39,783 bases of DNA from a virus (taxonomy: Duplodnaviria; Caudoviricetes): positions 1-39,783 of IMG/VR virus record IMGVR_UViG_3300031857_000489; one strand, given 5' to 3'. Each line of letters begins with the position of its first letter. Within the stretch, counting starts at the first letter, position 1. The notes under the pieces are model-generated. The model was not told where the DNA came from. It worked only from the letters and a program-made list of their open reading frames with translations, and did not search any database. The position numbers and the translations under genes were made by a program. Shown piece after piece: positions 24,945 to 39,783 of the stretch.

Positions 24945-26678
24945 TCACGTCCTTCGCCCGAACGTCAGGCCGATGTCAACTCCCGTCGACGTCGACGCTG
25001 GCCCAAACGCCATAGTTTGCAAGACCGCCATTGCCCGATCGTCAATGTCCGCCGATGAAATCACCGACGTTGTCGTGCAGAAGCAGTTGCTCGAAACTAG
25101 TCCACCAGATACAATATACAGAGAACTTTGTGTCTGTATGTCGTATACGGGGATGACATGGCCGCCAGGGTCGAATTGGATGTCGACGATCTTGTTCGTC
25201 GTTATGAGGCCGGAACTAGCAACAACGAGTTGGCGAAGATTTTCGGCGTGTCGCGACAGGTCATTTACCGATGCCTCCGGGAGAGAGCAGTCCGCATTCG
25301 CGGCATCACGGAAACGATGGCTAGCGTCCTTTCCAAGCGATACGCGACGATGAGCAAAGAGGACCGCAAGCGATTCACGGCTGCGGCCAACGAAGCGGCC
25401 CGTGGCCGAAAGCACTCTATCGAAGAGCGCATCAAGCGTGCTGCGTCCAATGAGCGAACCAAGGCCAACCGCAGCACCCTGGAAGTCTGGCTCGGAGACG
25501 AATTGACCGCCGCGGGGATCGATTTCGTTTCGACCAAGGCCGTTGGCATGTACAACATCGATGTTGCCCTCACAGAAAGCCGCGTCGCCGTGGAGGTATT
25601 CGGGGGCAACTGGCACAACTCGCCGAAGCACTCCGCGAGATTCCGAGAACGAACCGACTACTTGATCGATTCGGGTTGGCTTCCGGTAATTATTTGGTCC
25701 GTCAAGGATAAGCCGCTCGGCGTCGGGGCACGCGATTATGTCATCTCCCTTCACCAGCGACGATGCAAAGGCGAACCCTTCGACGGTAAGGAACATGTGA
25801 TTTGGGGTACAGGTGAGGCTATCCCCGCTGGCCAATACGATCCGAACACGGGGGCCACGGTAAAACGCCTTGAAGGCACCGACCGCCCCAGAGACTTGTA
25901 TGGCCGTTTCTCCAGTTAAACAATGCGGATGAGCCGGCGGGTGGTAGATCATCTGATACGGCCCAGGCTTGCCGATCTTCGCGAACGCTTCGCCGATGCC
26001 TACTTCTTTTCCGTTGAGCCCGCGGCAGATGTCGCACGCATCCGACGACGCGAGCCACCGCAGGCCGCGAACGACGCGAGACGCCCGCGCCGCTTCCATC
26101 GCCCCGGCGTGAAAACCGCGACTCGCCTCCGTCTGAGCAATGCGGGCAGCCTTCGCCGGGTCGGCAAAAATCTGGAACAGACGCCGATTCAGGTCTCGCG
26201 TGGCATCGCCTGCCCCCACTCCCTCCGCGACAGCGTTTCTTGCCGCATTTGCTGCTTCCGTCGCGTGCATGGTCGCGGTCTGTAGCGTTGATTGAGCCAG
26301 GTCGAACGCCGCTCGGCGGATGGATTCGACGACCTCCGGCCGCGACAGGTCGAACGCCGCGTCCATGCCCTGAATGCCGAGCGAGATGTTTTTTCGGACC
26401 AGAGGCAATCGACCGCCCTTGGCGCGACTGATCGCCGCAAGGATGTCTCGTGCCCGATGCCGCATGCCGTCGCGATAGTAGTGCCAGATGACATCGACGA
26501 ACCCGGCAGCAAGGGCCGTCATGTGGGCGTTGAGATCGACGGGGCGCCACGCGTGAATTTGGCCCGCCGCGACCTGGAGAAGGGACGACAACGCCGGATG
26601 CAGGCCGCGGGCGAGAAAGTGGCCAGTCGGGAGTTGCTGGCTATGGCCGGGAACGGTGATGTATTTGGCGTTGGTCAT
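24945..26678 (-). CDS. MuF/SPP1 gp7-like head morphogenesis protein interrupted by an intein
   Basis: RIAQTE, W.ASSDACDIC..LNG, PPAHPH|CFC (HPxCxC motif restored after splicing). Confidence 0.88.
   Translation of the reverse strand: MTNAKYITVPGHSQQLPTGHFLARGLHPALSSLLQVAAGQIHAWRPVDLNAHMTALAAGFVDVIWHYYRDGMRHRARDILAAISRAKGGRLPLVRKNISLGIQGMDAAFDLSRPEVVESIRRAAFDLAQSTLQTATMHATEAANAARNAVAEGVGAGDATRDLNRRLFQIFADPAKAARIAQTEASRGFHAGAMEAARASRVVRGLRWLASSDACDICRGLNGKEVGIGEAFAKIGKPGPYQMIYHPPAHPHCLTGETAIQVSGAVGAFKAFYRGPRVRIVLASGDSLTCTPNHMFLTVEGFAFASSLVKGDDIIACPDAERLILDGPNNYRKPTRIDQVVGSFSESRGVLRRVVPVAPEYLHGDAAFCEGNIDVVHANGLGRNEIDPRGGQFVSEPDFQGAAVGLGSLIGRSTLDALFDRVLSATGRFVGRSRESLAVLFAHRRVSLGKDASHRFRDAANADCSLPEASVNDLSRHAENLRQLVVASSGLITTNKIVDIQFDPGGHVIPVYDIQTQSSLYIVSGGLVSSNCFCTTTSVISSADIDDRAMAVLQTMAFGPASTSTGVDIGLTFGRRT
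25087..25115 (+). promoter_or_regulatory. Putative sigma70-like promoter for the antisense endonuclease
   Basis: TTGCTC (25087-92), 17-nt spacer, TACAAT (25110-15) in an AT-rich patch; GGGGA at 25149-53 before the ATG at 25158. Confidence 0.6.
25158..25919 (+). CDS. HTH + NUMOD3-like + Vsr/DUF559-type endonuclease (putative homing endonuclease), encoded antisense within the intein
   Basis: YEAGTSNNELAKIFGVSRQVIYRCL (HTH); RGRKHSIEERIKRA (NUMOD3-like); YNIDVAL...VAVEVFGGNWH...RTDYLIDSGWLPVIIW (Vsr/DUF559-like). Confidence 0.8.
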   Translation: MAARVELDVDDLVRRYEAGTSNNELAKIFGVSRQVIYRCLRERAVRIRGITETMASVLSKRYATMSKEDRKRFTAAANEAARGRKHSIEERIKRAASNERTKANRSTLEVWLGDELTAAGIDFVSTKAVGMYNIDVALTESRVAVEVFGGNWHNSPKHSARFRERTDYLIDSGWLPVIIWSVKDKPLGVGARDYVISLHQRRCKGEPFDGKEHVIWGTGEAIPAGQYDPNTGATVKRLEGTDRPRDLYGRFSS

Positions 26679-28840
26679 GTGTCCGATTGCGGCTTGGGTT
26701 GCGCCGGCTTGAACATGAAATACATATTATCATCCCCGTCCTTAACGGTGACGCCGTGCGGATCGTCCATCAGGTGAGGCTCATTGATGACCTGGAGTTG
26801 AATCTGGCCGCTGTCTCGCATTTTGCGGACGAGTTTTTGGAATCGCTCGGGCGTGAATCCGGGGCGAGGGTTACCGTTGTCGTCGAACCGCACCTGGTCG
26901 TAGAGCCGAGGCAGCGGAATCAACCCGTTGTCGTACTCGCGGAGATAGCCGAGATCCTTGTAGGCGACCCCGATCGCGTCCATGTCGGTGTTGTCGCTTG
27001 CCGACGATTGCGGCTTGGCTTGCGGCTTGGGTTGCGTCGCCGGTTTCGCTGGCCGGCTTCCGAACGTGCCGAGTTTTGCTGGCGCCGCTGGCCGCATCTG
27101 GTCCTCTTGCGACCGGGCCGTCTTCGCGGGAGCCGGCTTGGGCGGCGGCATCAAATGGTCGTTCTCGGCTGGGTAGCCGCCGTCACCGTCTCGGCGCCGC
27201 GAAAGGAATAGCTGAAGCACGCCATCTTCGACGATGCCGGCTTCACGCTCTTCGGGCTTCAACCCGCCCCGTCCCTCGGCTCCCGTCGTCGTGTACAGAC
27301 CGGATCGGCGGAGTTGATACAGGTGGCGGTCAAAATCCTCGCGCGAGATATTGGGCAACTCCTTCCGCAGATCCACCAGCGACACGAAGTTTGGCCGGCT
27401 GGACCTCGACTCGACCCGCTTCATCGCCCGCGCGAACTCGCCGCGGAATTCTTCGGCGGACAACGGCGGCGATGGCGATGGGCTGGGCGCTGGCTTCTCG
27501 GCAGGCGCGACCGCCGGCTCGGCAGTGGCCGCCAACTCCTGATGTCCGCGAATCTGCTCGACAATCTGCGCCTTCAACTTCGGATTCGCCCCCTTGATGC
27601 CGAGTTCGGTTTTCAGTTCCTTGAGTTGCGGAATCGTCATTTTCGACAGATGCCCGATAAGTTCCTGCGCTGTCGCCCTCGCCTGTTCCGAGTCGCTGGC
27701 CCTGGGGGTCTTGAGGATTGCCGTTGCCGCCTGCCGGGCTTGCTGCTGGCTGTCGGCACGCTTCGGCGCAGCCGGCTTCTTCGCCCCGGCTGCCTGTTGC
27801 TTCTGGGCCGACTGCGGCTTGGTTGTCGCCGCGCCGGCGTTCGGGTTGGCGATGCGGAAAGTTCGCCCGCCCTGCCGCTTGTAGAACCGCCCCGAAGTCT
27901 CCCACGTCTCGCCATCCTTGCGTGCCGTGGCCTTGACGACGTAAACGGCGAGCGACTTTCGCGACATCGGCGGGTCAGCTTCATCGTACCAGTGCCCCAG
28001 GATGTCGGCGATGAGATCGATCCTCTCTTGCTCGCCGCCGTCGTCCGGCTGTGCGGCGCGATCGCCGAGCGATTTGGCGACGAAACGAGTTGTCAAGGAA
28101 TCCTTGACAACTGCCGCACGGGCGTAGATCGGAGACGCCAGAAGTCCGCGGCGGATGGATTTCGGCGTCGGCAGGTCCAGTTTGTGCGTCTCGCCCTCGA
28201 CGACGGATCGCATGGTTTTCATCTTGTTCGACAGCAGCTTGTAGTTGTGCATGTCAACCTTCGTGTTCGAGAAGAGGTAACGAATCTTTGATCGGCTTTT
28301 GGTCGTCAATCGCAGCGTCCGGCCGGGAATCTGAAGGTTTTCAAGAGCCGTCCAGGGCGGCGTCATGACAATCGTCGACCGTGGCCGATCGCCTACCGTG
28401 TCGTCCAGGTTGATGCCGGTCGAGCCCGACGGGATTGTGGTGATGAACACGCGAGCCTTTCCGCTCTGGAACTGTTGCACCGCGTCTTTGTCGGCCGACG
28501 ATCCGCTGTGATATTCGACGACGTCGCTGATGCCGTTTTTGGCGAATTCCTGGCGCAGCAAGTCGACCACGCCCGCCTCGTCGTTGCCGCCAGGGTTGAC
28601 GCTCGACGTGAACAGGATCACCGAATGGCCGGCCTTGATGTCCTCGATCGCCTTCGCGACGGCGTGGGGAACCTTGTGCCGCTCTCGACGCAGGCGGGCC
28701 TGCATGATCGCCTGGGCGGCGTTTTTCGAGTCCCCGCCGGCGATGGATTCGAGTTCGGCTTTCGCCTCTTCGGGTAGGTCGACCGTCTCGACGCTGGCGT
28801 CTATGCGGCGGTAAAGCGGAGATTCCAAAAGCTCGCTCAT
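26675..28840 (-). CDS. Multidomain head-region protein (~721 aa): Strawberry-notch-like SF2 helicase C-domain, Rho-N/SAP-like helix pair, two wHTH-like modules
   Basis: Start at 28840 (ATGA overlap with portal); FQSGKARVFITTIPSGSTGINLDD...PPWTA...QIPGRTLR; LSKMTIPQLKELKTELGIKG. Confidence 0.75.
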   Translation of the reverse strand: MSELLESPLYRRIDASVETVDLPEEAKAELESIAGGDSKNAAQAIMQARLRRERHKVPHAVAKAIEDIKAGHSVILFTSSVNPGGNDEAGVVDLLRQEFAKNGISDVVEYHSGSSADKDAVQQFQSGKARVFITTIPSGSTGINLDDTVGDRPRSTIVMTPPWTALENLQIPGRTLRLTTKSRSKIRYLFSNTKVDMHNYKLLSNKMKTMRSVVEGETHKLDLPTPKSIRRGLLASPIYARAAVVKDSLTTRFVAKSLGDRAAQPDDGGEQERIDLIADILGHWYDEADPPMSRKSLAVYVVKATARKDGETWETSGRFYKRQGGRTFRIANPNAGAATTKPQSAQKQQAAGAKKPAAPKRADSQQQARQAATAILKTPRASDSEQARATAQELIGHLSKMTIPQLKELKTELGIKGANPKLKAQIVEQIRGHQELAATAEPAVAPAEKPAPSPSPSPPLSAEEFRGEFARAMKRVESRSSRPNFVSLVDLRKELPNISREDFDRHLYQLRRSGLYTTTGAEGRGGLKPEEREAGIVEDGVLQLFLSRRRDGDGGYPAENDHLMPPPKPAPAKTARSQEDQMRPAAPAKLGTFGSRPAKPATQPKPQAKPQSSASDNTDMDAIGVAYKDLGYLREYDNGLIPLPRLYDQVRFDDNGNPRPGFTPERFQKLVRKMRDSGQIQLQVINEPHLMDDPHGVTVKDGDDNMYFMFKPAQPKPQSDT

Positions 28841-30399
28841 TGCATCCCGCCTCCAAAAATGTCCGCGATATCGCCGGCGTCGCCGGTTTGCTCGCCGCCC
28901 ATTCCTCCGCCATCGCCCATTCCGCCGCCCATGCCACCGCCGCCCATCAGTTGCTGCATCTGGTCCATTGGCTGTTCCCCCGTCGCCCATCCAAGCGGCT
29001 GCGCCGACATCGGGTTCCCGACCGGATCGTCTCCACCGTGCTCCCACGGCTCGAAGCCCTCAGCCTGTCGCCACTCGTTCGGCGTGACGACGGAGTTTCG
29101 GTGCATCGTTTCGTATTTTCGCAGACGCATTTCCGGGTCGTTGGGAGTCGGATCGTCCCAGTAAATCACAAGGTCGTCGTTGTACCGTTTCGCCAGCTTT
29201 TCCGTCAGCACTTGGCCGGCTAGAGTCAATTTCGGCTTGAGGCACGATCCGTAAAAATTGGCTCGGCTCGCGTCGGCGTTTGCGTAGGTCGATTGTTCCA
29301 CCAGGCCGGCGATGGATTGCGGCACGCGATGAGCCGACATCAGAGAACCGCGGACCTGATCGGCTGACGCGGCGTAGTCCATTTCGACATTCGTTCGCGA
29401 AAACGGGACAACGCGAATGCCAGGCGACAGCACAACCACTTCGCCGGTGTTGCGCACGCCTTGGTACGCCTCCCGGAATCGAGATTTGACGCGGGCGATC
29501 TCCTCCTGGTCGGGGTTGGCAACGTCCTTGTCCATTTCCAGCGCCACGCCGGGGAATGCTCCGTTGGCGAACGTTTGGACGCGGCTGCGGTCGATGTTGT
29601 TGCTGACGTCGATCCATGCGCCGATTGCACCGACCGGAGAATAGCCGTCGATGATCGAGAACGGCGACGGATACGCAATCTTGATGATTTCCGATGCCGG
29701 CCGCCGCTCGATGCCGCCCGCGCCAGGGAACCAGCCTGCTCCGAACGCGCCCACAGCGTCGACCATGACACTGTTCGTCGGCCGAATTTCGTACTCGCCG
29801 ATTAGCTGGTCTTTGCCGGGGATTTCGTACACCCACTGCGACGGCAGAACCCAAAGCTGACTCGGCCGGTCATCGACGTTGATTTTCGCCGGCGGAGCCC
29901 ACATGTACGCCGCCCCGGTTAGTTCCAGGTACATCATGACCTTGTACCAGAAAGTCCAGGCGACATCCGGGCCGTTCGGGTTGAGCAGGATTCGGTAGAG
30001 CGGATGGTCCTGGCTGACCTGTTCGAGGGTGTCGTCGGACCTGATGTTGGTCAACGCTTTTCGCCGTGCGTTGGCCGTCAGAAAACGGCTCTGAAATTCG
30101 GCGTTGACATCTCGACGATCACGGCCGCTGGCGAGAGCCTTTCGGTAGGCTGATCGCACGTCGGCGGCTGCGTGGCGCTTGGCGACAATCGGCTGGAATC
30201 CGCCGACTTCCTCCGCGATGGCTTTGATCGCGACGTAATTCCAGCCGCGGAAATGATTGACCTGCTCGATTCGCTGCCATGAATTGTTGAGGGCGGCGGT
30301 CGTCGCGCCAGACCATGCCGGCATCACGTCGATAACGCGGTCGCGGCGAGCCTTGACGATGCCGCCAAGGAATCCGAAAAGGGATCGGGTCAGTTGCAC
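28837..30399 (-). CDS. Phage portal protein, HK97 family
   Basis: HPLYRILLNPN, LELTGAAY, GYSPV, F.NGAFPG, N.G.VVVL, TPNEWRQAEGFEP. Confidence 0.92.
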   Translation of the reverse strand: MQLTRSLFGFLGGIVKARRDRVIDVMPAWSGATTAALNNSWQRIEQVNHFRGWNYVAIKAIAEEVGGFQPIVAKRHAAADVRSAYRKALASGRDRRDVNAEFQSRFLTANARRKALTNIRSDDTLEQVSQDHPLYRILLNPNGPDVAWTFWYKVMMYLELTGAAYMWAPPAKINVDDRPSQLWVLPSQWVYEIPGKDQLIGEYEIRPTNSVMVDAVGAFGAGWFPGAGGIERRPASEIIKIAYPSPFSIIDGYSPVGAIGAWIDVSNNIDRSRVQTFANGAFPGVALEMDKDVANPDQEEIARVKSRFREAYQGVRNTGEVVVLSPGIRVVPFSRTNVEMDYAASADQVRGSLMSAHRVPQSIAGLVEQSTYANADASRANFYGSCLKPKLTLAGQVLTEKLAKRYNDDLVIYWDDPTPNDPEMRLRKYETMHRNSVVTPNEWRQAEGFEPWEHGGDDPVGNPMSAQPLGWATGEQPMDQMQQLMGGGGMGGGMGDGGGMGGEQTGDAGDIADIFGGGMQ

Positions 30400-35244: not shown

Positions 35245-35388
35245 TCACACCGCAACCTTCCTCTGCGGCAACGTCTGCGTCGTTTTCCGTTGCGCCTTCA
35301 AACATCGCCCGATAACGCGCCGCTCATCGTCGTCCGAGTGCATGAGTAGCGGCATCGTGCCGATGATCTGGAAATCGACGCTATACAT
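35245..35388 (-). pseudogene. 47-aa ORF, probable gene remnant (MYSVDFQIIGTMPLLMHSDD...)
   Basis: AAGGAG RBS; manual translation; sequence loses character after ~20 aa. Confidence 0.35.
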
Positions 35389-36547
35389 TTCGTTCTCCTT
35401 TTAGGGTTTGGTTTTCACTTCTCGCCCGAATCTCCTCCATCACCGCCCGCAGAAACACCGCCGCGACGTGCGGCACGATGGCATTGCCGTATCCACTCAA
35501 CCGCCCCACCCGATTCCGCCGCGCCTCGCGGATCATTCGCTTAGCGTCTTTTGGATCAACTCCCAACTTTCCCAGCCGGGCGATGAGCGGTCCCAGTTCT
35601 CGGGGAATCCCATGAGCCAACGGCTGAACGCCGCGTCCAACACGCCGCGTCTTTCCGTCGAGGCAGGGGACGAGGCGGTAGTCGCTCCAAGGACCGCATG
35701 ATTGAGCGTGATGTTTTTGGTTGTGAATCCTCCTGGGCTCGGATGCCGCTCCGCGTCGGTTTTTGTCGTGGCCGGCCACCCCGTCAGCGGTTCGTTCTTC
35801 CCCGGCCGCAGCCCCATTGCCGCTTCCACTGACCGGCTGTAGTCGCAGTTGCCGGCCCCCGGCGTCGCTGCCATGGGTGTTGCCCACCCCGCCATCGCCG
35901 CATCCGCCGGCAACGCTCCCCCGGCTTGGTTCGGGCCGGTTGTGTGAACAATCTGCCCCAGAGTGAGCCCGAACCCGTTGCCGTTCCCGGTTCTCTCTTT
36001 GCACTCTTTCCTTCGCGCTAACGTCTTGCCCGGGTCTTTGCACTCGAACTCGTTCGCCACCGGCGTAGGCCACCCAGAACAATCGCTGCCTGATGTGCGG
36101 CGCCCCGACGCTATGTGCGCCCAGATTGACCGCCCCGCAGGTGTAGCCTGCCGCTTCCAGGTCTGCCGATACTCCATCCCACCATTCAAGCCCGCCTCGG
36201 CCAGCAACCTGCTCACCGATGACGCAAGGCGGTCGGACGGCGTCGATGAGCCGGAAGAACTCGGGCCACAGGTGCCGTTCGTCTTCGACCCCCTTCCGCT
36301 TGCCGGCTGCCGAGAACGGTTGGCACGGGCAACTACCCGTCCAGACGGGCCATTCGTCGGGCCATCCGGCGAGTTCGAGGGCGAGTTCCCATCCTGCAAC
36401 GCCGGCGAAGAAGTGGCATCGTCGAAACCCGGCAACATCGGCTGGAGAAACATCCGTGATACTCCTGTCGTCCACAGTCGCGGACGGGTAAAGGTTCCGC
36501 AGCCAATCGGCGGCGAACGGGTCGTGTTCGTTGAAAAAGACGCTCAC
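35381..36547 (-). CDS. C5-cytosine DNA methyltransferase, alpha frame, copy 1
   Basis: GTG at 36547 (GTGA overlap); FFAGVAG (I), GSCPCQPFS (IV), GEQV (VI), GAPHIRQRLF (VIII), GYGNAIVP (X). Confidence 0.88.
   Translation of the reverse strand: MSVFFNEHDPFAADWLRNLYPSATVDDRSITDVSPADVAGFRRCHFFAGVAGWELALELAGWPDEWPVWTGSCPCQPFSAAGKRKGVEDERHLWPEFFRLIDAVRPPCVIGEQVAGRGGLEWWDGVSADLEAAGYTCGAVNLGAHSVGAPHIRQRLFWVAYAGGERVRVQRPGQDVSAKERVQRENRERQRVRAHSGADCSHNRPEPSRGSVAGGCGDGGVGNTHGSDAGGRQLRLQPVSGSGNGAAAGEERTADGVAGHDKNRRGAASEPRRIHNQKHHAQSCGPWSDYRLVPCLDGKTRRVGRGVQPLAHGIPRELGPLIARLGKLGVDPKDAKRMIREARRNRVGRLSGYGNAIVPHVAAVFLRAVMEEIRARSENQTLKGERNV
35533..36453 (-). CDS. Overprinted +1-frame MTase beta polypeptide, copy 1
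   Basis: GWPTP/GWATP/GWPATT modules and LDAAFSRWLMGFPENW (motif IX-like); conserved in copy 2. Confidence 0.7.
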   Translation of the reverse strand: MFLQPMLPGFDDATSSPALQDGNSPSNSPDGPTNGPSGRVVARANRSRQPASGRGSKTNGTCGPSSSGSSTPSDRLASSVSRLLAEAGLNGGMEYRQTWKRQATPAGRSIWAHIASGRRTSGSDCSGWPTPVANEFECKDPGKTLARRKECKERTGNGNGFGLTLGQIVHTTGPNQAGGALPADAAMAGWATPMAATPGAGNCDYSRSVEAAMGLRPGKNEPLTGWPATTKTDAERHPSPGGFTTKNITLNHAVLGATTASSPASTERRGVLDAAFSRWLMGFPENWDRSSPGWESWELIQKTLSE

Positions 36548-36822
36548 ACCTTCCCCCGCTTCGTCGCCGACGAAATCCGCGTCATCCCCAGCGCCGACCG
36601 CTTGATGATCTCCGCATGCCGACGCATTCGGTCGTTCTGCCGCGCCAACACGCGAATTCGGTGCAACAGCGTTTTGTTGGCCGCTTCGAGGCCGCGGACG
36701 ATCTCCGAAAGCGTGCGGCCTGATCCTGGACATGGTCCGTTGCCGTGGCCTGGCAGCTTGCCGGTTCGCGTCTGCCGCAGGTCGTCGCGCAGGCAGATCG
36801 GGCAGGTTGTTGTTGTTGTCAT
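36544..36822 (-). CDS. Small Zn-finger-like protein
   Basis: CPIC...H....CPGSG plus coiled coil; coupled on both sides. Confidence 0.6.
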   Translation of the reverse strand: MTTTTTCPICLRDDLRQTRTGKLPGHGNGPCPGSGRTLSEIVRGLEAANKTLLHRIRVLARQNDRMRRHAEIIKRSALGMTRISSATKRGKV

Positions 36823-37019
36823 TGGTCAACCGCCTTTCGCAACCGATCGCGGCATCGGCGGAAACTGCCCTCGTCGCCATCGCTGCTGAATACCCCGAAA
36901 CCCGCGAGGCCGTCCATGATTGACAGCACCGAAATGACCTCTCGTCGCAATTCGTCGAATGCATCGTCAATTTCCTTGCGGCAGCGGTCCCTCTCCTCTT
37001 GCTTCGCTTCGTTTGTCAT
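36819..37019 (-). CDS. Hypothetical protein (MTNEAKQEER...)
   Basis: ATG at 37019 overlaps the dcm-like stop; GGGAG-like RBS. Confidence 0.55.
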   Translation of the reverse strand: MTNEAKQEERDRCRKEIDDAFDELRREVISVLSIMDGLAGFGVFSSDGDEGSFRRCRDRLRKAVDQ

Positions 37020-38227
37020 TGTTCTTCCCCCAAATGCTTGTCGATCTTCTCGACTCGCTGTTTGAAAGTCTGTATGTTCAAGAGACGACACAGGTGCTTT
37101 CCGAAGACTTTCGCCAGCAGAGGGGGGACAGCGTTGCCGATCTGGCGAGCGATACTCACTCCATGGAATTGATAGCGATCCTGAAAGGACATGAGGCGGG
37201 CTGCTTCACGGTAGGAGAGACTTCGATCTTCAAGAGGATGGATGAACGGCCCTGACGCCACGTTGCGGAAATAGCATGTGATCGTGTACGCGGGCTTGTT
37301 TCTCGCAAGGCGGTGGTACAGCGTAGTGCAGTCCTGGCGGAGTTCCCCGGAGTTGATGCGTCTCATCTTCTTGAAGCGGTCGGGAAGATGTTCGGTCGGA
37401 ACGCTACGAAGTCCGAAACCCTCCTTGACAAAGGGGACGACTTTGCTTGCTTGTTCTGAAACCCCGTTCGCTTGATGCATGGTCAATTGTTTGCAATTGG
37501 AACGAACATACTTTTGATATGAGCACGACGGTGGATGCAGGTACTCCCAGCCATCACGGCGGAGTTCTCCCTTCATCAAGGGCAAATCGCCAATCGCTTC
37601 TTCCACTGTCACGTGCGGTTGAACGTCGAAAAGTCCCGCCTCACCGTGCGTCGGTTCCGGGAAGCTGATGGGCACACCGGTCCGCGTGGCAAGGAAGAAG
37701 ATTCGGCGTCGAAGCTGAGGCACTCCGTAGTCAGCGGCGACCATTACTTTCGCCTCGACCTTGTAACCGATCTCATCAAACGCCTGGTAGATAAGCCGTT
37801 TGAAATGCCCGCCGCGAAACGTCAGCAAGCCAGGGACGTTTTCCATCATCACCCATTTCGGCTGCACTTCACCGACCAGACGAACGAAGTGCTCGAAGAG
37901 GAAATTGCGAGGGTCGTCCTCTTTCCGCTTGCCGTGGGTGCTGTAGCCCTGGCAACTCGGTCCGCCCGTCAAGAGATCAAGCTCCTGACCACCGCATGCT
38001 TCAAGGATTTTTGAGGCAGGGAGGAGGGTGACGTCTTCGCAGAGCGTTTCCGTTTCGGGGTGATTTGCCTTATAGGTCTTTAGACTGTGCTCGTCAAAAT
38101 CGACGGCGAGAGGTGTGCGAAAACCAGCTTGTCGGAGACCTTCTGAAAGCCCTCCGGCTCCGCAGAACAAGTCCACACAGATCGGTTGAATCGCTTTTTT
38201 CAAATCCTTCATGGATTCAGGAATCAT
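37016..38227 (-). CDS. dcm: Conventional single-chain C5-cytosine DNA methyltransferase
   Basis: DLFCGAGG (I), GGPSCQGYS (IV), ENVPG (VI), YGVPQLRRRIF (VIII), REAARLMSF (IX), QIGNAVPP (X); the symbol is a family label only. Confidence 0.92.
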   Translation of the reverse strand: MIPESMKDLKKAIQPICVDLFCGAGGLSEGLRQAGFRTPLAVDFDEHSLKTYKANHPETETLCEDVTLLPASKILEACGGQELDLLTGGPSCQGYSTHGKRKEDDPRNFLFEHFVRLVGEVQPKWVMMENVPGLLTFRGGHFKRLIYQAFDEIGYKVEAKVMVAADYGVPQLRRRIFFLATRTGVPISFPEPTHGEAGLFDVQPHVTVEEAIGDLPLMKGELRRDGWEYLHPPSCSYQKYVRSNCKQLTMHQANGVSEQASKVVPFVKEGFGLRSVPTEHLPDRFKKMRRINSGELRQDCTTLYHRLARNKPAYTITCYFRNVASGPFIHPLEDRSLSYREAARLMSFQDRYQFHGVSIARQIGNAVPPLLAKVFGKHLCRLLNIQTFKQRVEKIDKHLGEEQ

Positions 38228-39204
38228 CTCCCAATTTCCTCCATCACCGCCCGCAGAAACACCGCCGCTAGCTGCGGCACGATGGCGTTGCCGTATCCCC
38301 TCAATCGACCGACGCGATTCCGCCGGGCGTCTCGGATGATCCGGCGAGCGTCTTTTGGATCAACTCCCAACTTTCCCAGCCGGGCGATGAGCGGTCCCAG
38401 TTCTCGGGGAATCCCATGAGCCAACGGCTGAACGCCGCGTCCAACACGCCGCGTCTTGCCGTCGAGGCAGGGGACGAGGCGGTAGTCGCTCCAAGGGCCA
38501 TTTCCGAAAGCGCCAACGCCGCATCCGCCGGCAACGCTCCCCCGGCTTGGTTCGGGCCGCCGTTGCTGCCGTCCGTCGCTCGGGGCGTGTTCCAGCCGGT
38601 TGTGTGAACAATCTGTCCCAGAGTGAGCCCGAACCCGTTGCCGTTCCCGGTTCTCTCTTTGCACTCTTTCCTTCGCGCTAACGTCTTGTCGGGGTTGTTG
38701 CACTCGAACTCGTTCGCCGCCGGCGTCGGCCACCCAGAACAGCCTTTGTCTGATGTGCGGTGCCCCGACGCTGTGTGCGCCCAGATTGATCGCCCCGCAG
38801 GTGTAACCTGCCGCTTCCAGGTCTGCCGATACTCCATCCCACCATTCAAGCCCGCCTCGGCCAGCAACCTGCTCACCGATGACGCAAGGCGGTCGGACAG
38901 CGTTGATGAGACGGAAGAACTCGGGCCACAGATGCCGCTCGTCTTCGACCCCTTGCCGTTTGCCGGCTGCCGAGAAGGGCTGACAGGGACAAGATCCCGA
39001 CCAGATCGGCCAATCGCCCGGCCATCCGGCGAGCTGCAAGGCAAGCTCCCATCCCGCAACGCCGGCGAAGAAATGGGCTCGTCGAAAATCTCGAACATCG
39101 GCTGCTTGAACATCCGTGATACTCCGCGTGTCCACCGTCGCGTCGGGGTACAGGTTGTGAATCCACTCGGCGGCGAAGGGCTCGATTTCGTTCATGTAGG
39201 TCAT
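38224..39204 (-). CDS. C5-cytosine DNA methyltransferase, alpha frame, copy 2 (start 39204 or 39255)
   Basis: Same motifs as copy 1: FFAGVAG, GSCPCQPFS, GEQV, GAPHIRQRLF, GYGNAIVPQ. Confidence 0.88.
   Translation of the reverse strand: MTYMNEIEPFAAEWIHNLYPDATVDTRSITDVQAADVRDFRRAHFFAGVAGWELALQLAGWPGDWPIWSGSCPCQPFSAAGKRQGVEDERHLWPEFFRLINAVRPPCVIGEQVAGRGGLEWWDGVSADLEAAGYTCGAINLGAHSVGAPHIRQRLFWVADAGGERVRVQQPRQDVSAKERVQRENRERQRVRAHSGTDCSHNRLEHAPSDGRQQRRPEPSRGSVAGGCGVGAFGNGPWSDYRLVPCLDGKTRRVGRGVQPLAHGIPRELGPLIARLGKLGVDPKDARRIIRDARRNRVGRLRGYGNAIVPQLAAVFLRAVMEEIGR
38301..39113 (-). CDS. Overprinted +1-frame MTase beta polypeptide, copy 2
   Basis: GWPTP/GWNTP modules and SRWLMGFPENW; ATG at the same position as in copy 1. 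Confidence 0.7.
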   Translation of the reverse strand: MFKQPMFEIFDEPISSPALRDGSLPCSSPDGRAIGRSGRDLVPVSPSRQPANGKGSKTSGICGPSSSVSSTLSDRLASSVSRLLAEAGLNGGMEYRQTWKRQVTPAGRSIWAHTASGHRTSDKGCSGWPTPAANEFECNNPDKTLARRKECKERTGNGNGFGLTLGQIVHTTGWNTPRATDGSNGGPNQAGGALPADAALALSEMALGATTASSPASTARRGVLDAAFSRWLMGFPENWDRSSPGWESWELIQKTLAGSSETPGGIASVD

Positions 39205-39302
39205 TCCGCCCGCCTCTCGATCGACGTCGTCGTGATCGATTACTTCCTTGCGCATTCGATTCCTCCCGCAAACCGCACTCGTCTCCACACCCGCCGCCGA
39301 TA

Positions 39303-39783
39303 TCAGCTTCCAGCCCCTGCCAACGTCGCGATGACATAGAGGTAAGATTCGTCGACCAGGAACGCAGTCGGCAGCTTTTCGTCGGTGAACATGATCGAGA
39401 CAACTGCCTCACCGTCATGCACCTTGAGCATGTCGGTGAGGAACTTCGGCGAGAAGCTGATGCGGACATTGCCGCCGCTAAACTCGATCGGCACTTCAAC
39501 CTTTGACCGGCCAGCGCCGGCCGAGTTGCTTTGCAAGGTGAGCTTTCCGTGCGAGAACTCGCACACGACGCCGACACTTTCCTCGCTGGCCATGATTGCC
39601 GCTTGGCGAACTGCCCGGTAAAGCTGCCCGCATGGGATCTCGACTTTGTGCGCGGGGTTCTGCGGGATGACTTGGCGATAGTTCGGGAATCGCCCTTCGA
39701 CGAGTCGGCTGTAGATGGTTACCGTGCCGACTTCGAAAGCGACGTCATTGCTTGACGACGTGACGACCACCTTGCCCTCGCCG
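39303..39783 (-). CDS. dnaN: DNA polymerase III beta sliding clamp, C-terminal part (5' end outside the window)
   Basis: SRLVEGRFPNYRQVIP, L.RAVRQAAI, ISFSPKFLTDML, YLYVI. Confidence 0.88.
   Translation of the reverse strand, partial: GEGKVVVTSSSNDVAFEVGTVTIYSRLVEGRFPNYRQVIPQNPAHKVEIPCGQLYRAVRQAAIMASEESVGVVCEFSHGKLTLQSNSAGAGRSKVEVPIEFSGGNVRISFSPKFLTDMLKVHDGEAVVSIMFTDEKLPTAFLVDESYLYVIATLAGAGS

What the first reader, a model, noticed from the sequence alone, without database searches (positions are those of the whole stretch)
35381..39204. Two C5-methyltransferases with an overprinted +1-frame partner that supplies motif IX and swappable GWxTP modules
Seen: each alpha frame has motifs I, IV, VI, VIII and X, but low-complexity text where the TRD and motif IX belong. 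The +1 frame is open for 306 aa (35533-36453) and 270 aa (38301-39113), starts at the homologous ATG (MFxQPM) in both copies, and contains GWxTP modules plus FSRWLMGFPENW. The copies differ mainly by module-sized in-frame indels: GWNTPRATDGSNG (39 nt, flanked by GCCG microhomology) only in copy 2, and GWATP/GWPATT modules (net 183 nt) only in copy 1. Motif II/III-like text (NE.DPFAA.W, D.RSI.DV) precedes motif I, which is a permuted order. Established knowledge: M.EcoHK31I uses an alpha chain plus a beta chain carrying motif IX from an alternative internal frame, and multispecific Bacillus phage MTases carry modular TRDs. Inference: these are heterodimeric, possibly multispecific MTases whose specificity modules are shuffled in the overprinted frame; alpha/beta mixing between copies is possible.
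Basis: partly seen in the sequence, partly recalled or inferred. Interest (0 to 1): 0.75.

Follow-up and report, generated by a model that had tools for sequence, protein, structure and literature searches.

The report
Nested two-chain phage methylase, shuffled cassettes
A phage DNA cytosine methylase gene carries a second conserved gene in an overlapping reading frame, whose product is predicted to bind the enzyme and carries short exchangeable cassettes that likely choose the DNA sites to be methylated; the two copies in this contig probably come from two related phages joined in assembly.

Summary
The sequence observations hold: both alpha frames, both +1 frames (306 and 270 aa), the shared ATG, the 39-nt and 183-nt indels, and motifs II-III before motif I. 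The +1 frame is a real gene: open over alpha motifs VI-VIII in 214 of 215 non-redundant homologues (about 18% expected), with motif IX usually 14 codons before alpha's motif X. An alpha+beta model scores 0.92 against 0.00 for controls. Beta holds 1-5 W-x-T-P cassettes, reused in different orders across unrelated phages. That they are specificity domains is inferred (about 55-60%), not shown.

Two corrections. The 39-nt block is half a cassette, lost from copy 1. And the two copies probably do not share a genome: a 57-kb circular assembly of this phage has only copy 1, and run contigs branch at both ends of the intervening dcm gene, so 38228-39783 likely belongs to a second phage.

The nested layout is known from M.EcoHK31I, both frames have PHROG families, and this scan noted the family on at least ten other findings. 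The cassette array and the II-III-I order did not appear in my nine paper searches. Verdict: new variant of a known kind.

The parts
35381..36547 (-). alpha chain, copy 1 (388 aa from a GTG overlapping the stop of the upstream 92-aa ORF; start inferred): motifs II-III-I-IV-VI-VIII, variable linker, X
   Evidence: (phrog_363, E 2.8e-69)
35533..36453 (-). beta chain, copy 1 (306 aa, +1 frame)
   Evidence: (phrog_1008, E 8.9e-18)
36462..36466 (-). Shine-Dalgarno-like AGGAG for beta1, written in the Arg-Ser codons of alpha motif III, 8 nt before the ATG
   Evidence: family statistic
35935..36072 (-). beta1 cassette 1 (WPTP...LGQIVHTTG), same family as copy 2 cassette 1
35887..35934 (-). beta1 half cassette (second half of the WNTP cassette; first 13 codons missing)
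35779..35886 (-). beta1 cassette WATP...; also found in L002
35686..35778 (-). beta1 last cassette WPAT...; contigs of runs X2 and X3 skip 35695-35775, i.e. residues 227-253
   Evidence: (table 5)
35593..35640 (-). motif IX in beta1 (LDAAFSRWLMGFPENW)
36544..36822 (-). 92-aa ORF of unknown function, stop overlaps alpha1 start
   Evidence: (no family)
36819..37019 (-). 66-aa ORF of unknown function, ATG overlaps the dcm stop
   Evidence: (no family)
37016..38227 (-). ordinary monomeric C5-methyltransferase (dcm-type, 403 aa, canonical motif order); shared segment at which assemblies branch
   Evidence: (PF00145 E 5e-61)
38224..39204 (-). alpha chain, copy 2 (326 aa from ATG 39204, or 343 aa from ATG 39255); probably from a second phage
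   Evidence: (phrog_363, E 3.9e-66)
38301..39113 (-). beta chain, copy 2 (270 aa, +1 frame)
   Evidence: (phrog_1008, E 2.9e-23)
38595..38732 (-). beta2 cassette 1; its W-P-T-P start and its end dock on alpha in the model
38511..38594 (-). beta2 cassette 2 (WNTPRATD...), a family of 29 members; its first 39 nt (38556-38594) are absent from copy 1
38397..38444 (-). motif IX in beta2
38228..39783 (.). segment absent from the 57,460-bp record G001 of the same phage (copy 2 plus the 3' part of a sliding-clamp gene, 39303-39783): suspected graft from a second phage

Best explanation
Each locus is one stretch of phage DNA with two conserved reading frames that likely make a two-chain DNA cytosine-5 methyltransferase: alpha supplies the catalytic motifs (in the order II-III-I-IV-VI-VIII-X), and beta, likely started internally, is predicted to bind alpha and supplies motif IX plus a tandem array of 30-45-residue W-x-T-P cassettes that likely act as alternative DNA-recognition modules. 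The DNA is collinear with a one-chain enzyme: I-VIII in frame 0, variable region and IX in frame +1, X in frame 0. Alpha crosses the cassette array as an unconserved linker and beta crosses the catalytic motifs as an unconserved leader. Cassettes are gained, lost and exchanged in multiples of three bases, which keeps both frames open. Inferred: one cassette docks at a time, so a multi-cassette beta gives several specificities, protecting phage DNA from several host restriction enzymes. The two copies are likely alleles from two co-occurring related phages that share a dcm gene and were joined by the assembler.
For: Shown: +1 frame open over VI-VIII in 214 of 215 homologues; 0 stops against 308 expected, controls as expected; IX-to-X offset 14 codons in 154 of 197, 16 in the EcoHK31I-like gene; codon-position variability switches from alpha's third position over motifs I-IV (0.20/0.19/0.55) to beta's third position at the first W.TP (0.55/0.39/0.37); GGAG accompanies the ATG in 51 of 82 loci against 4 of 36 without it. 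Cassettes: 1-5 per beta; the 12 largest families occur in different slots and arrays and in carriers no closer than average (median alpha identity 0.65-0.73 against 0.66); arrays repeat a family 0 times against 6.9 shuffled. In a canonical-order clade (L037-L045) IX and X are both in alpha while the TP modules stay in +1, so beta is kept for more than motif IX. Predicted: complex score 0.92, best control 0.00 (mark reached by 116 of 157 solved and 2 of 215 mismatched pairs; runs agree in 78% of contacts; partner pLDDT 62 or more); cassette 1 and motif IX touch alpha, cassette 2 is not in the confident interface. Join: G001 matches window 1-38227 at 99.9-100%, overlaps itself by 141 nt inside dcm, and has another gene upstream of dcm and only copy 1; four of four runs show that other flank.
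Against: No methylation, expression or DNA-binding data. No detectable homology between the cassettes and the SPbeta MtbP variable region (hhalign E 0.62). Published work places the EcoHK31I TRD in alpha (PMC2836561, PMC3404938, passages read), and the EcoHK31I-like alpha does have a T-L motif there. The complex may pass by likeness to solved one-chain enzymes, of which alpha and beta are two parts. The beta-versus-alpha conservation inside cassette families (50% against 27%) is biased, as families were defined and aligned in beta. Absence of repeated cassettes could also reflect deletion between direct repeats. The alpha2-dcm junction itself exists in short records of X1 (38 letters) and X3 (45 letters), and contig depths do not add up cleanly, so a natural two-copy recombinant is not excluded.
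Confidence: 0.62

Rival explanations
1. Two-chain enzyme as in M.EcoHK31I, but the cassettes do not set DNA specificity: the enzyme has one (perhaps short or relaxed) target fixed by conserved parts, and the array varies for another reason, such as escape from host sensing or binding of host proteins.
For: No match of cassettes to known TRDs; cassettes have middling model confidence (pLDDT about 55-65 over much of the array); EcoHK31I's TRD is assigned to alpha (PMC2836561).
Against: The array lies exactly between VIII and IX, where C5 enzymes hold the TRD (PMC5944983, PMC3404938, passages); alpha's linker is unconserved; loops are rich in G, R, S, K, T, N; cassette 1 docks on alpha.
Confidence: 0.25
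2. Cassettes are specificity modules, but only one slot (for example the first) is functional; the rest are a silent reserve brought into use by deletion or recombination.
For: Only cassette 1 docks in the model; half cassettes exist (copy 1); near-identical alphas differ by whole cassettes.
Against: The same families occur in first, middle and last slots with conserved sequence; Bacillus phage enzymes use tandem TRDs for several targets (PMC8936443, passage).
Confidence: 0.1
3. One polypeptide made by two programmed frameshifts (0 to +1 after VIII, back before X).
For: The motifs are collinear on the DNA; a few loci have frame switches (L013, L032, L137).
Against: Both frames are kept open where such a product would not need them: +1 over VI-VIII and upstream, alpha across the array in 27 of 30 untruncated loci found with the N-terminal domain alone; SD and ATG co-occur; EcoHK31I works as two separate chains (PMC2836561).
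Confidence: 0.03
4. On copy number only: the window is a true recombinant phage with both copies flanking dcm, so alpha1/beta2 and alpha2/beta1 hybrids form in one infection (about 25% on this separate question).
For: The contig is assembled so; k-mers joining alpha2's end to dcm exist in X1 and X3; alpha2's stop overlaps dcm's ATG.
Against: Circular G001 has one copy and a different dcm flank; dcm branches at both ends, and the copy-2 side has about half the depth of the copy-1 side in X1 (5.9-6.8 against 10-13); no listed piece spans dcm with both flanks; none of the other fetched loci held two nested copies.
Confidence: 0.25

Closest known systems
M.EcoHK31I (E. coli, YGGCCR; Lee, Kam and Shaw 1995, not held; known through passages of PMC2836561 and PMC3404938 and supplement 1 of PMC2836561). 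A gene matching its published primer was fetched as L306.
   Same: Beta nested in +1 of alpha; IX in beta, X in alpha; IX-X offset 16 against 14 codons; beta's N-terminus variable or dispensable; alpha profiles align (hhalign 97.7%, E 1.3e-12); IX aligns weakly (E 0.009).
   Different: L306 has canonical I-II-III order, no W.TP array, a T-L motif in alpha, and a neighbouring restriction endonuclease. Ours is an orphan phage gene with II-III-I order and a cassette array in beta.
PHROG 363 (alpha) and PHROG 1008 (beta); GenBank genes such as N15 gp58, K1G ORF31/ORF30 ('putative Mte8-like protein') and Paenibacillus phage Diva g49/g50 ('g49 internal gene')
   Same: Same family; both frames are already catalogued as 'DNA methyltransferase', and the nested ORF is annotated in K1G and Diva.
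   Different: Annotation only; most records viewed name one frame. Diva has canonical motif order.
Multispecific C5-MTases of Bacillus phages (SPR, phi3T, rho11, H2, SPbeta)
   Same: Phage orphan enzymes with tandem TRDs between VIII and IX (PMC8936443, passage); SPbeta MtbP shows two PT-L-T / FT-V-N motifs loosely like W-P-T-P-T.
   Different: One chain, one frame; no significant profile match to our cassettes; specificities were shown by experiment there, not here.
Naturally permuted C5-MTases (M.BssHII, M.Alw26I, M2.Eco31I, M.Esp3I, M2.BsaI)
   Same: Non-canonical motif order.
   Different: All are circular permutations cut in the variable region, IX-X before I (PMC5944983, passages; its search only asked for X before I). 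Ours swaps II-III with I and leaves X at the C-terminus, which is not a circular permutation.
M.AquI
   Same: Two-chain C5-MTase (PMC3404938, passage).
   Different: Split into I-VIII and IX-X; X is not on the large chain.

Membership tests
C5-cytosine DNA methyltransferases (PF00145) | Catalytic motifs I, IV (PC), VI, VIII, X and the C5-MTase fold | tested here: met
   PF00145 above cut-off; model matches M.HhaI at Z 15.1, rmsd 2.6, 166 aligned; motif VI reads EQV and is invariant
C5-cytosine DNA methyltransferases (PF00145) | Methylates cytosine C5 in DNA | not testable with these tools
   no activity data
C5-cytosine DNA methyltransferases (PF00145) | Canonical order I-X on one chain | tested here: not met
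   II-III precede I; IX is in the other frame
EcoHK31I-type nested heterodimer | Second ORF wholly inside alpha in another frame, under selection | tested here: met
EcoHK31I-type nested heterodimer | Motif IX in beta, motif X in alpha | tested here: met
   L037 clade shows the same segment directly before X in one frame
EcoHK31I-type nested heterodimer | Chains associate and both are needed for activity | tested here: inconclusive
   model supports binding, 0.92 against 0.00; need for activity untested
EcoHK31I-type nested heterodimer | TRD on alpha (as published) | tested here: inconclusive
   alpha's region between VIII and the WSD block is unconserved and pLDDT under 50, which argues against; the conserved WSD...PLAHG block of alpha could still touch DNA
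Bacillus-phage multispecific MTases | Tandem exchangeable units between VIII and IX | tested here: met
   (in the nested frame)
Bacillus-phage multispecific MTases | Units homologous to known TRDs | tested here: inconclusive
   no significant match to SPbeta MtbP, PDB sequences or folds; units are short and low in complexity
Bacillus-phage multispecific MTases | Each unit confers one target sequence | not testable with these tools
   needs methylome mapping
Circularly permuted C5-MTases | IX-X precede I | tested here: not met
   X is C-terminal in alpha
PHROG 363 / PHROG 1008 | Profile match over most of the length | tested here: met

The most novel reading that the evidence does not exclude
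Thousands of phages and prophages run a combinatorial library of DNA-recognition cassettes in a hidden reading frame: several hundred cassette types, each open in two frames, are shuffled among two-chain methyltransferases, one large clade of which has also rewired its SAM-binding fold (II-III-I). Each beta would give as many methylation specificities as it has cassettes, making this the widest multispecific antirestriction system known and a ready kit of 30-45-residue programmable specificity modules.
Probability: 0.5. Interest if true: 0.78.

Novelty: new variant of a known kind. Interest (0 to 1): 0.58.

Why it matters
If the cassettes set specificity, phage m5C methylomes cannot be predicted from current annotation, which usually names one frame only, and the family offers hundreds of small natural specificity modules that can be tested by simple swaps. 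It would also be one of the most widespread long same-strand gene overlaps in prokaryotic viruses, with graded intermediates (IX in alpha or in beta; canonical or swapped N-terminus) that make the origin of an overlap directly traceable. The tandem duplication in this window should not be cited as biology until long reads support it.

Tried and rejected
Beta against PDB sequences: no match, alone or as a 64-row profile. Beta model alone (pTM 0.31) against 48,161 chains: best Z 2.2, uninformative. Pfam and NCBIfam: nothing for beta. Segment HMMs for the permutation gave only weak scores (best E 0.005), so the claim rests. Cassette HMM against SPbeta MtbP, the window's dcm and EcoHK31I-like alpha: no signal. 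No RNA holder listed among 20 runs. Chance openness from high GC was rejected (controls; antisense frames open in 10 of 197). A plain duplicate-assembly of one gene was rejected: the copies are 86-92% identical in aligned blocks. The missing cover at 36600-36919 in X3 was not used (88% of that run read). Bujnicki 2002 and Lee 1995 were not held. The tree of motifs IV-VIII (34 rows) does not settle whether EcoHK31I shares one origin with this family: long branches meet.
Full report
Context. The window is a 39,783-base virus record, 56% complete by CheckV, with terminase, portal, capsid and tape-measure genes. The finding lies at its right end on the minus strand: part of a sliding-clamp gene, alpha2/beta2, an ordinary dcm-type gene, two small ORFs, alpha1/beta1.

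Observation. All four frames are as described. Alpha matches phrog_363 and beta phrog_1008, both labelled DNA methyltransferase. Pairwise alignment gives three blocks of 86%, 90% and 92% identity, separated by a 39-nt gap in copy 1 and a 183-nt gap in copy 2, with identical tracts of 92, 72, 43 and 111 nt. The 39 nt are the first 13 codons of a cassette that is complete in copy 2 and belongs to a family of 29; copy 1 keeps the second half, so this is best read as a deletion in copy 1.

Is beta a gene? A motif-IV pattern found 286 hits in 297 loci; 266 were of the window's type, 215 after removing those over 90% alike (one of them, L001, is copy 1 itself), and 197 were complete to motif X. The +1 frame is open from IV to just before X in 186 of 197; eight others first stop 206-321 codons after IV and three stop at codon 13, ahead of a later start; +2 is open in 0 of 197. 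Over motifs VI-VIII, +1 is open in 214 of 215, and the exception has a Met just after its stop and a full array. Synonymous recoding predicts 36 of 197 open and 308 stops; 0 were seen. Controls behave as chance: +2, 383 stops against 368; +1 upstream of beta's start, 254 against 215. Alpha is open across the array in 186 of 186 against 9 expected, but that set was chosen for complete alpha. In the unbiased set found with the N-terminal domain alone (33 of 35 loci parsed), 27 of 30 untruncated loci have alpha intact to X and 3 are frameshifted. Beta's start is not fixed (ATG at -15, -21, -11, +17 or +42 codons from motif I), which fits the dispensable N-terminus of EcoHK31I beta (PMC2836561, passages). 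Where alpha reads RSIxDV, GGAG accompanies the ATG in 51 of 82 loci against 4 of 36 without it (p 2e-7, loci not phylogenetically independent).

Motif IX and the complex. IX lies 14 codons before X in 154 of 197 loci. In a canonical-order clade (six of eight loci examined by pattern), the same segment is in alpha directly before X while +1 still holds TP modules. This identifies the segment as IX and shows that beta is kept even without it. A gene found with a published EcoHK31I primer (80 of 5,426 E. coli genomes) has a 309-aa alpha, a 176-aa +1 beta and an offset of 16. The alpha2 model matches M.HhaI at Z 15.1, rmsd 2.6, 166 aligned, with residues 194-237 under pLDDT 50. Alpha2 with beta2 residues 86-254 and SAH scores 0.92 against a best control of 0.00; the mark was reached by 116 of 157 solved and 2 of 215 mismatched pairs, runs agree in at least 78% of contacts and partner pLDDT is at least 62. 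Being two parts of a known fold, the pair may pass by likeness. Motif IX and the start and end of cassette 1 touch alpha near VIII and X; cassette 2 is not among the confident contacts.

Cassettes. In 186 of 197 betas that could be parsed there are 1-5 units, median 35 aa, with consensus W-P-T-P-x-A-x-D...L-x-x-A-A-x-L-A-G and a variable G/R/S/K/N-rich loop. Among 213 distinct loci (18 exact duplicates dropped first), 525 units fall into 239 families. The 12 largest occur in several slots and in nearly as many arrays as members, in carriers with median alpha identity 0.65-0.73 against 0.66 for all pairs. Of 16 pairs at 95% or more alpha identity none share the whole array and 8 share a family (the duplicate removal lowers that first count). 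No array repeats a family (0 against 6.9 shuffled; 2 against 13.5 at a looser cut). By eye, two families also appear in canonical-order L048. In runs X2 and X3 a contig skips 35695-35775, exactly the body of beta1's last cassette, with unknown letters between (laid at 90% likeness, 39 letters on the shorter side, so a relative's allele is possible). Exchange is thus well supported. A role in DNA recognition is inferred from position, composition and docking; homology tests to known TRDs were blank.

Permutation. Profile alignment with EcoHK31I-like alpha pairs motif I with motif I and then shows a 33-residue gap where II-III sit in the canonical enzyme; the structural alignment starts at model residue 1 and HhaI residue 36 (that this is the motif II strand is recalled). 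Motif I lies 23-25 residues before IV throughout the clade. On a tree of motifs IV-VIII alone, the 25 swapped rows form one branch (100/100), next to the canonical nested enzyme of phage Diva (95/92), which suggests one swap within an already nested family. PMC5944983 (passages) lists only circular permutations cut in the variable region, from a search that would not have caught this order.

Are there two copies? G001 (57,460 bp) equals window 1-37423 at its end and 37283-38227 at its start, so it closes into a circle inside dcm. Upstream of dcm it has a different 132-aa ORF, and it holds only copy 1 and no match to the sliding-clamp fragment. In run contigs dcm is a single unit from 37020 to 38227. 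All four runs show G001's flank at 38227; all four show a second branch at 37020; X1 and X2 show alpha2's end also leading into another gene that shares dcm's first 22 nt. In X1 the copy-2 side has depth 5.9-6.8 and the copy-1 side 10-13. Against this, short records carry the alpha2-dcm junction in X1 and X3, below the tool's bar for bridging, and depths at dcm do not sum. The simplest reading is two related phages that share dcm, one with copy 1 and one with copy 2, joined across a 1.2-kb repeat (about 75%). The copies are then alleles, which still shows cassette turnover between close relatives (alpha identity 0.93, one cassette shared).

Prior knowledge. The nested layout is published for M.EcoHK31I (PMC2836561: passages and supplement 1 read, whose Figure S1 sequence is a picture I could not see; PMC3404938: passages). 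GenBank already lists the inner ORF in K1G and Diva; PMC5582158 mentions 'Mte8-like protein' once without comment (passage). Tandem TRDs in Bacillus phage enzymes are from a passage of PMC8936443; PMC12707154 was searched by term and added only a reference. Nine paper searches, read as listings except for these papers, showed no description of the family, its array or its motif order; the library lacks most subscription and older papers and REBASE. The scan's own notes report the nested family, the cassette idea and the permutation on other genomes; I had reached that reading before opening them.

Verdict. A real, widespread two-chain phage C5-methyltransferase gene (about 90%), whose hidden chain carries shuffled cassettes that likely set specificity (55-60%). 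New variant of a known kind; interest 0.58. The tandem pair special to this window is probably an artefact.

Noticed in passing
window 37016-38227: A canonical dcm gene sits between genes as a unit with ATGA overlaps at both ends and lower GC (0.54-0.55 against 0.61-0.66); it is shared by at least two genome contexts, and another gene begins with the same 22 nt, as if a cassette site.
   Followed up: partly
window 38228-39783: Absent from the circular 57-kb record G001; holds the 3' part of a DNA polymerase III beta-clamp gene. Probable graft from a second phage.
   Followed up: partly
L037-L045: A canonical-order clade in which motifs IX and X are both in alpha and the nested +1 frame holds only TP modules: a likely intermediate or alternative split.
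   Followed up: partly
L013 and L032, inside the array: Two assemblies of one gene differ in the length of a G run (8 against 9) that switches frames; phase variation or sequencing error.
   Followed up: partly
L093, L234, L257 (also L094, L125, L191): Alpha carries 140-210 extra codons between beta's motif IX and motif X, after beta stops; insertion of unknown nature.
   Followed up: no
L305:831-1826 (phage N15 gp58): N15's 'possible cytosine-specific methylase' has an unannotated +1 frame with two full cassettes and motif IX: a cultured model for tests.
   Followed up: partly
L306:1514-2443: EcoHK31I-like gene in 80 of 5,426 complete E. coli genomes; in the record viewed only alpha is annotated.
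   Followed up: partly
L302:4299-5303 (G001): The same phage encodes a third methyltransferase (phrog_56 match, E 1.5e-17).
   Followed up: no
window 24945-26678: Head morphogenesis (Mu F-like) gene with a weak intein match (PF14890, E 0.001, below cut-off).
   Followed up: no
window 26675-29047: A helicase-like gene with a weak endonuclease VII match lies between the portal and head genes, an unusual place.
   Followed up: no
P0007 (Logan protein): A relative with copy 1's upstream context but copy-2-like sequence and a 37-residue insertion after motif VI: further mosaicism.
   Followed up: no
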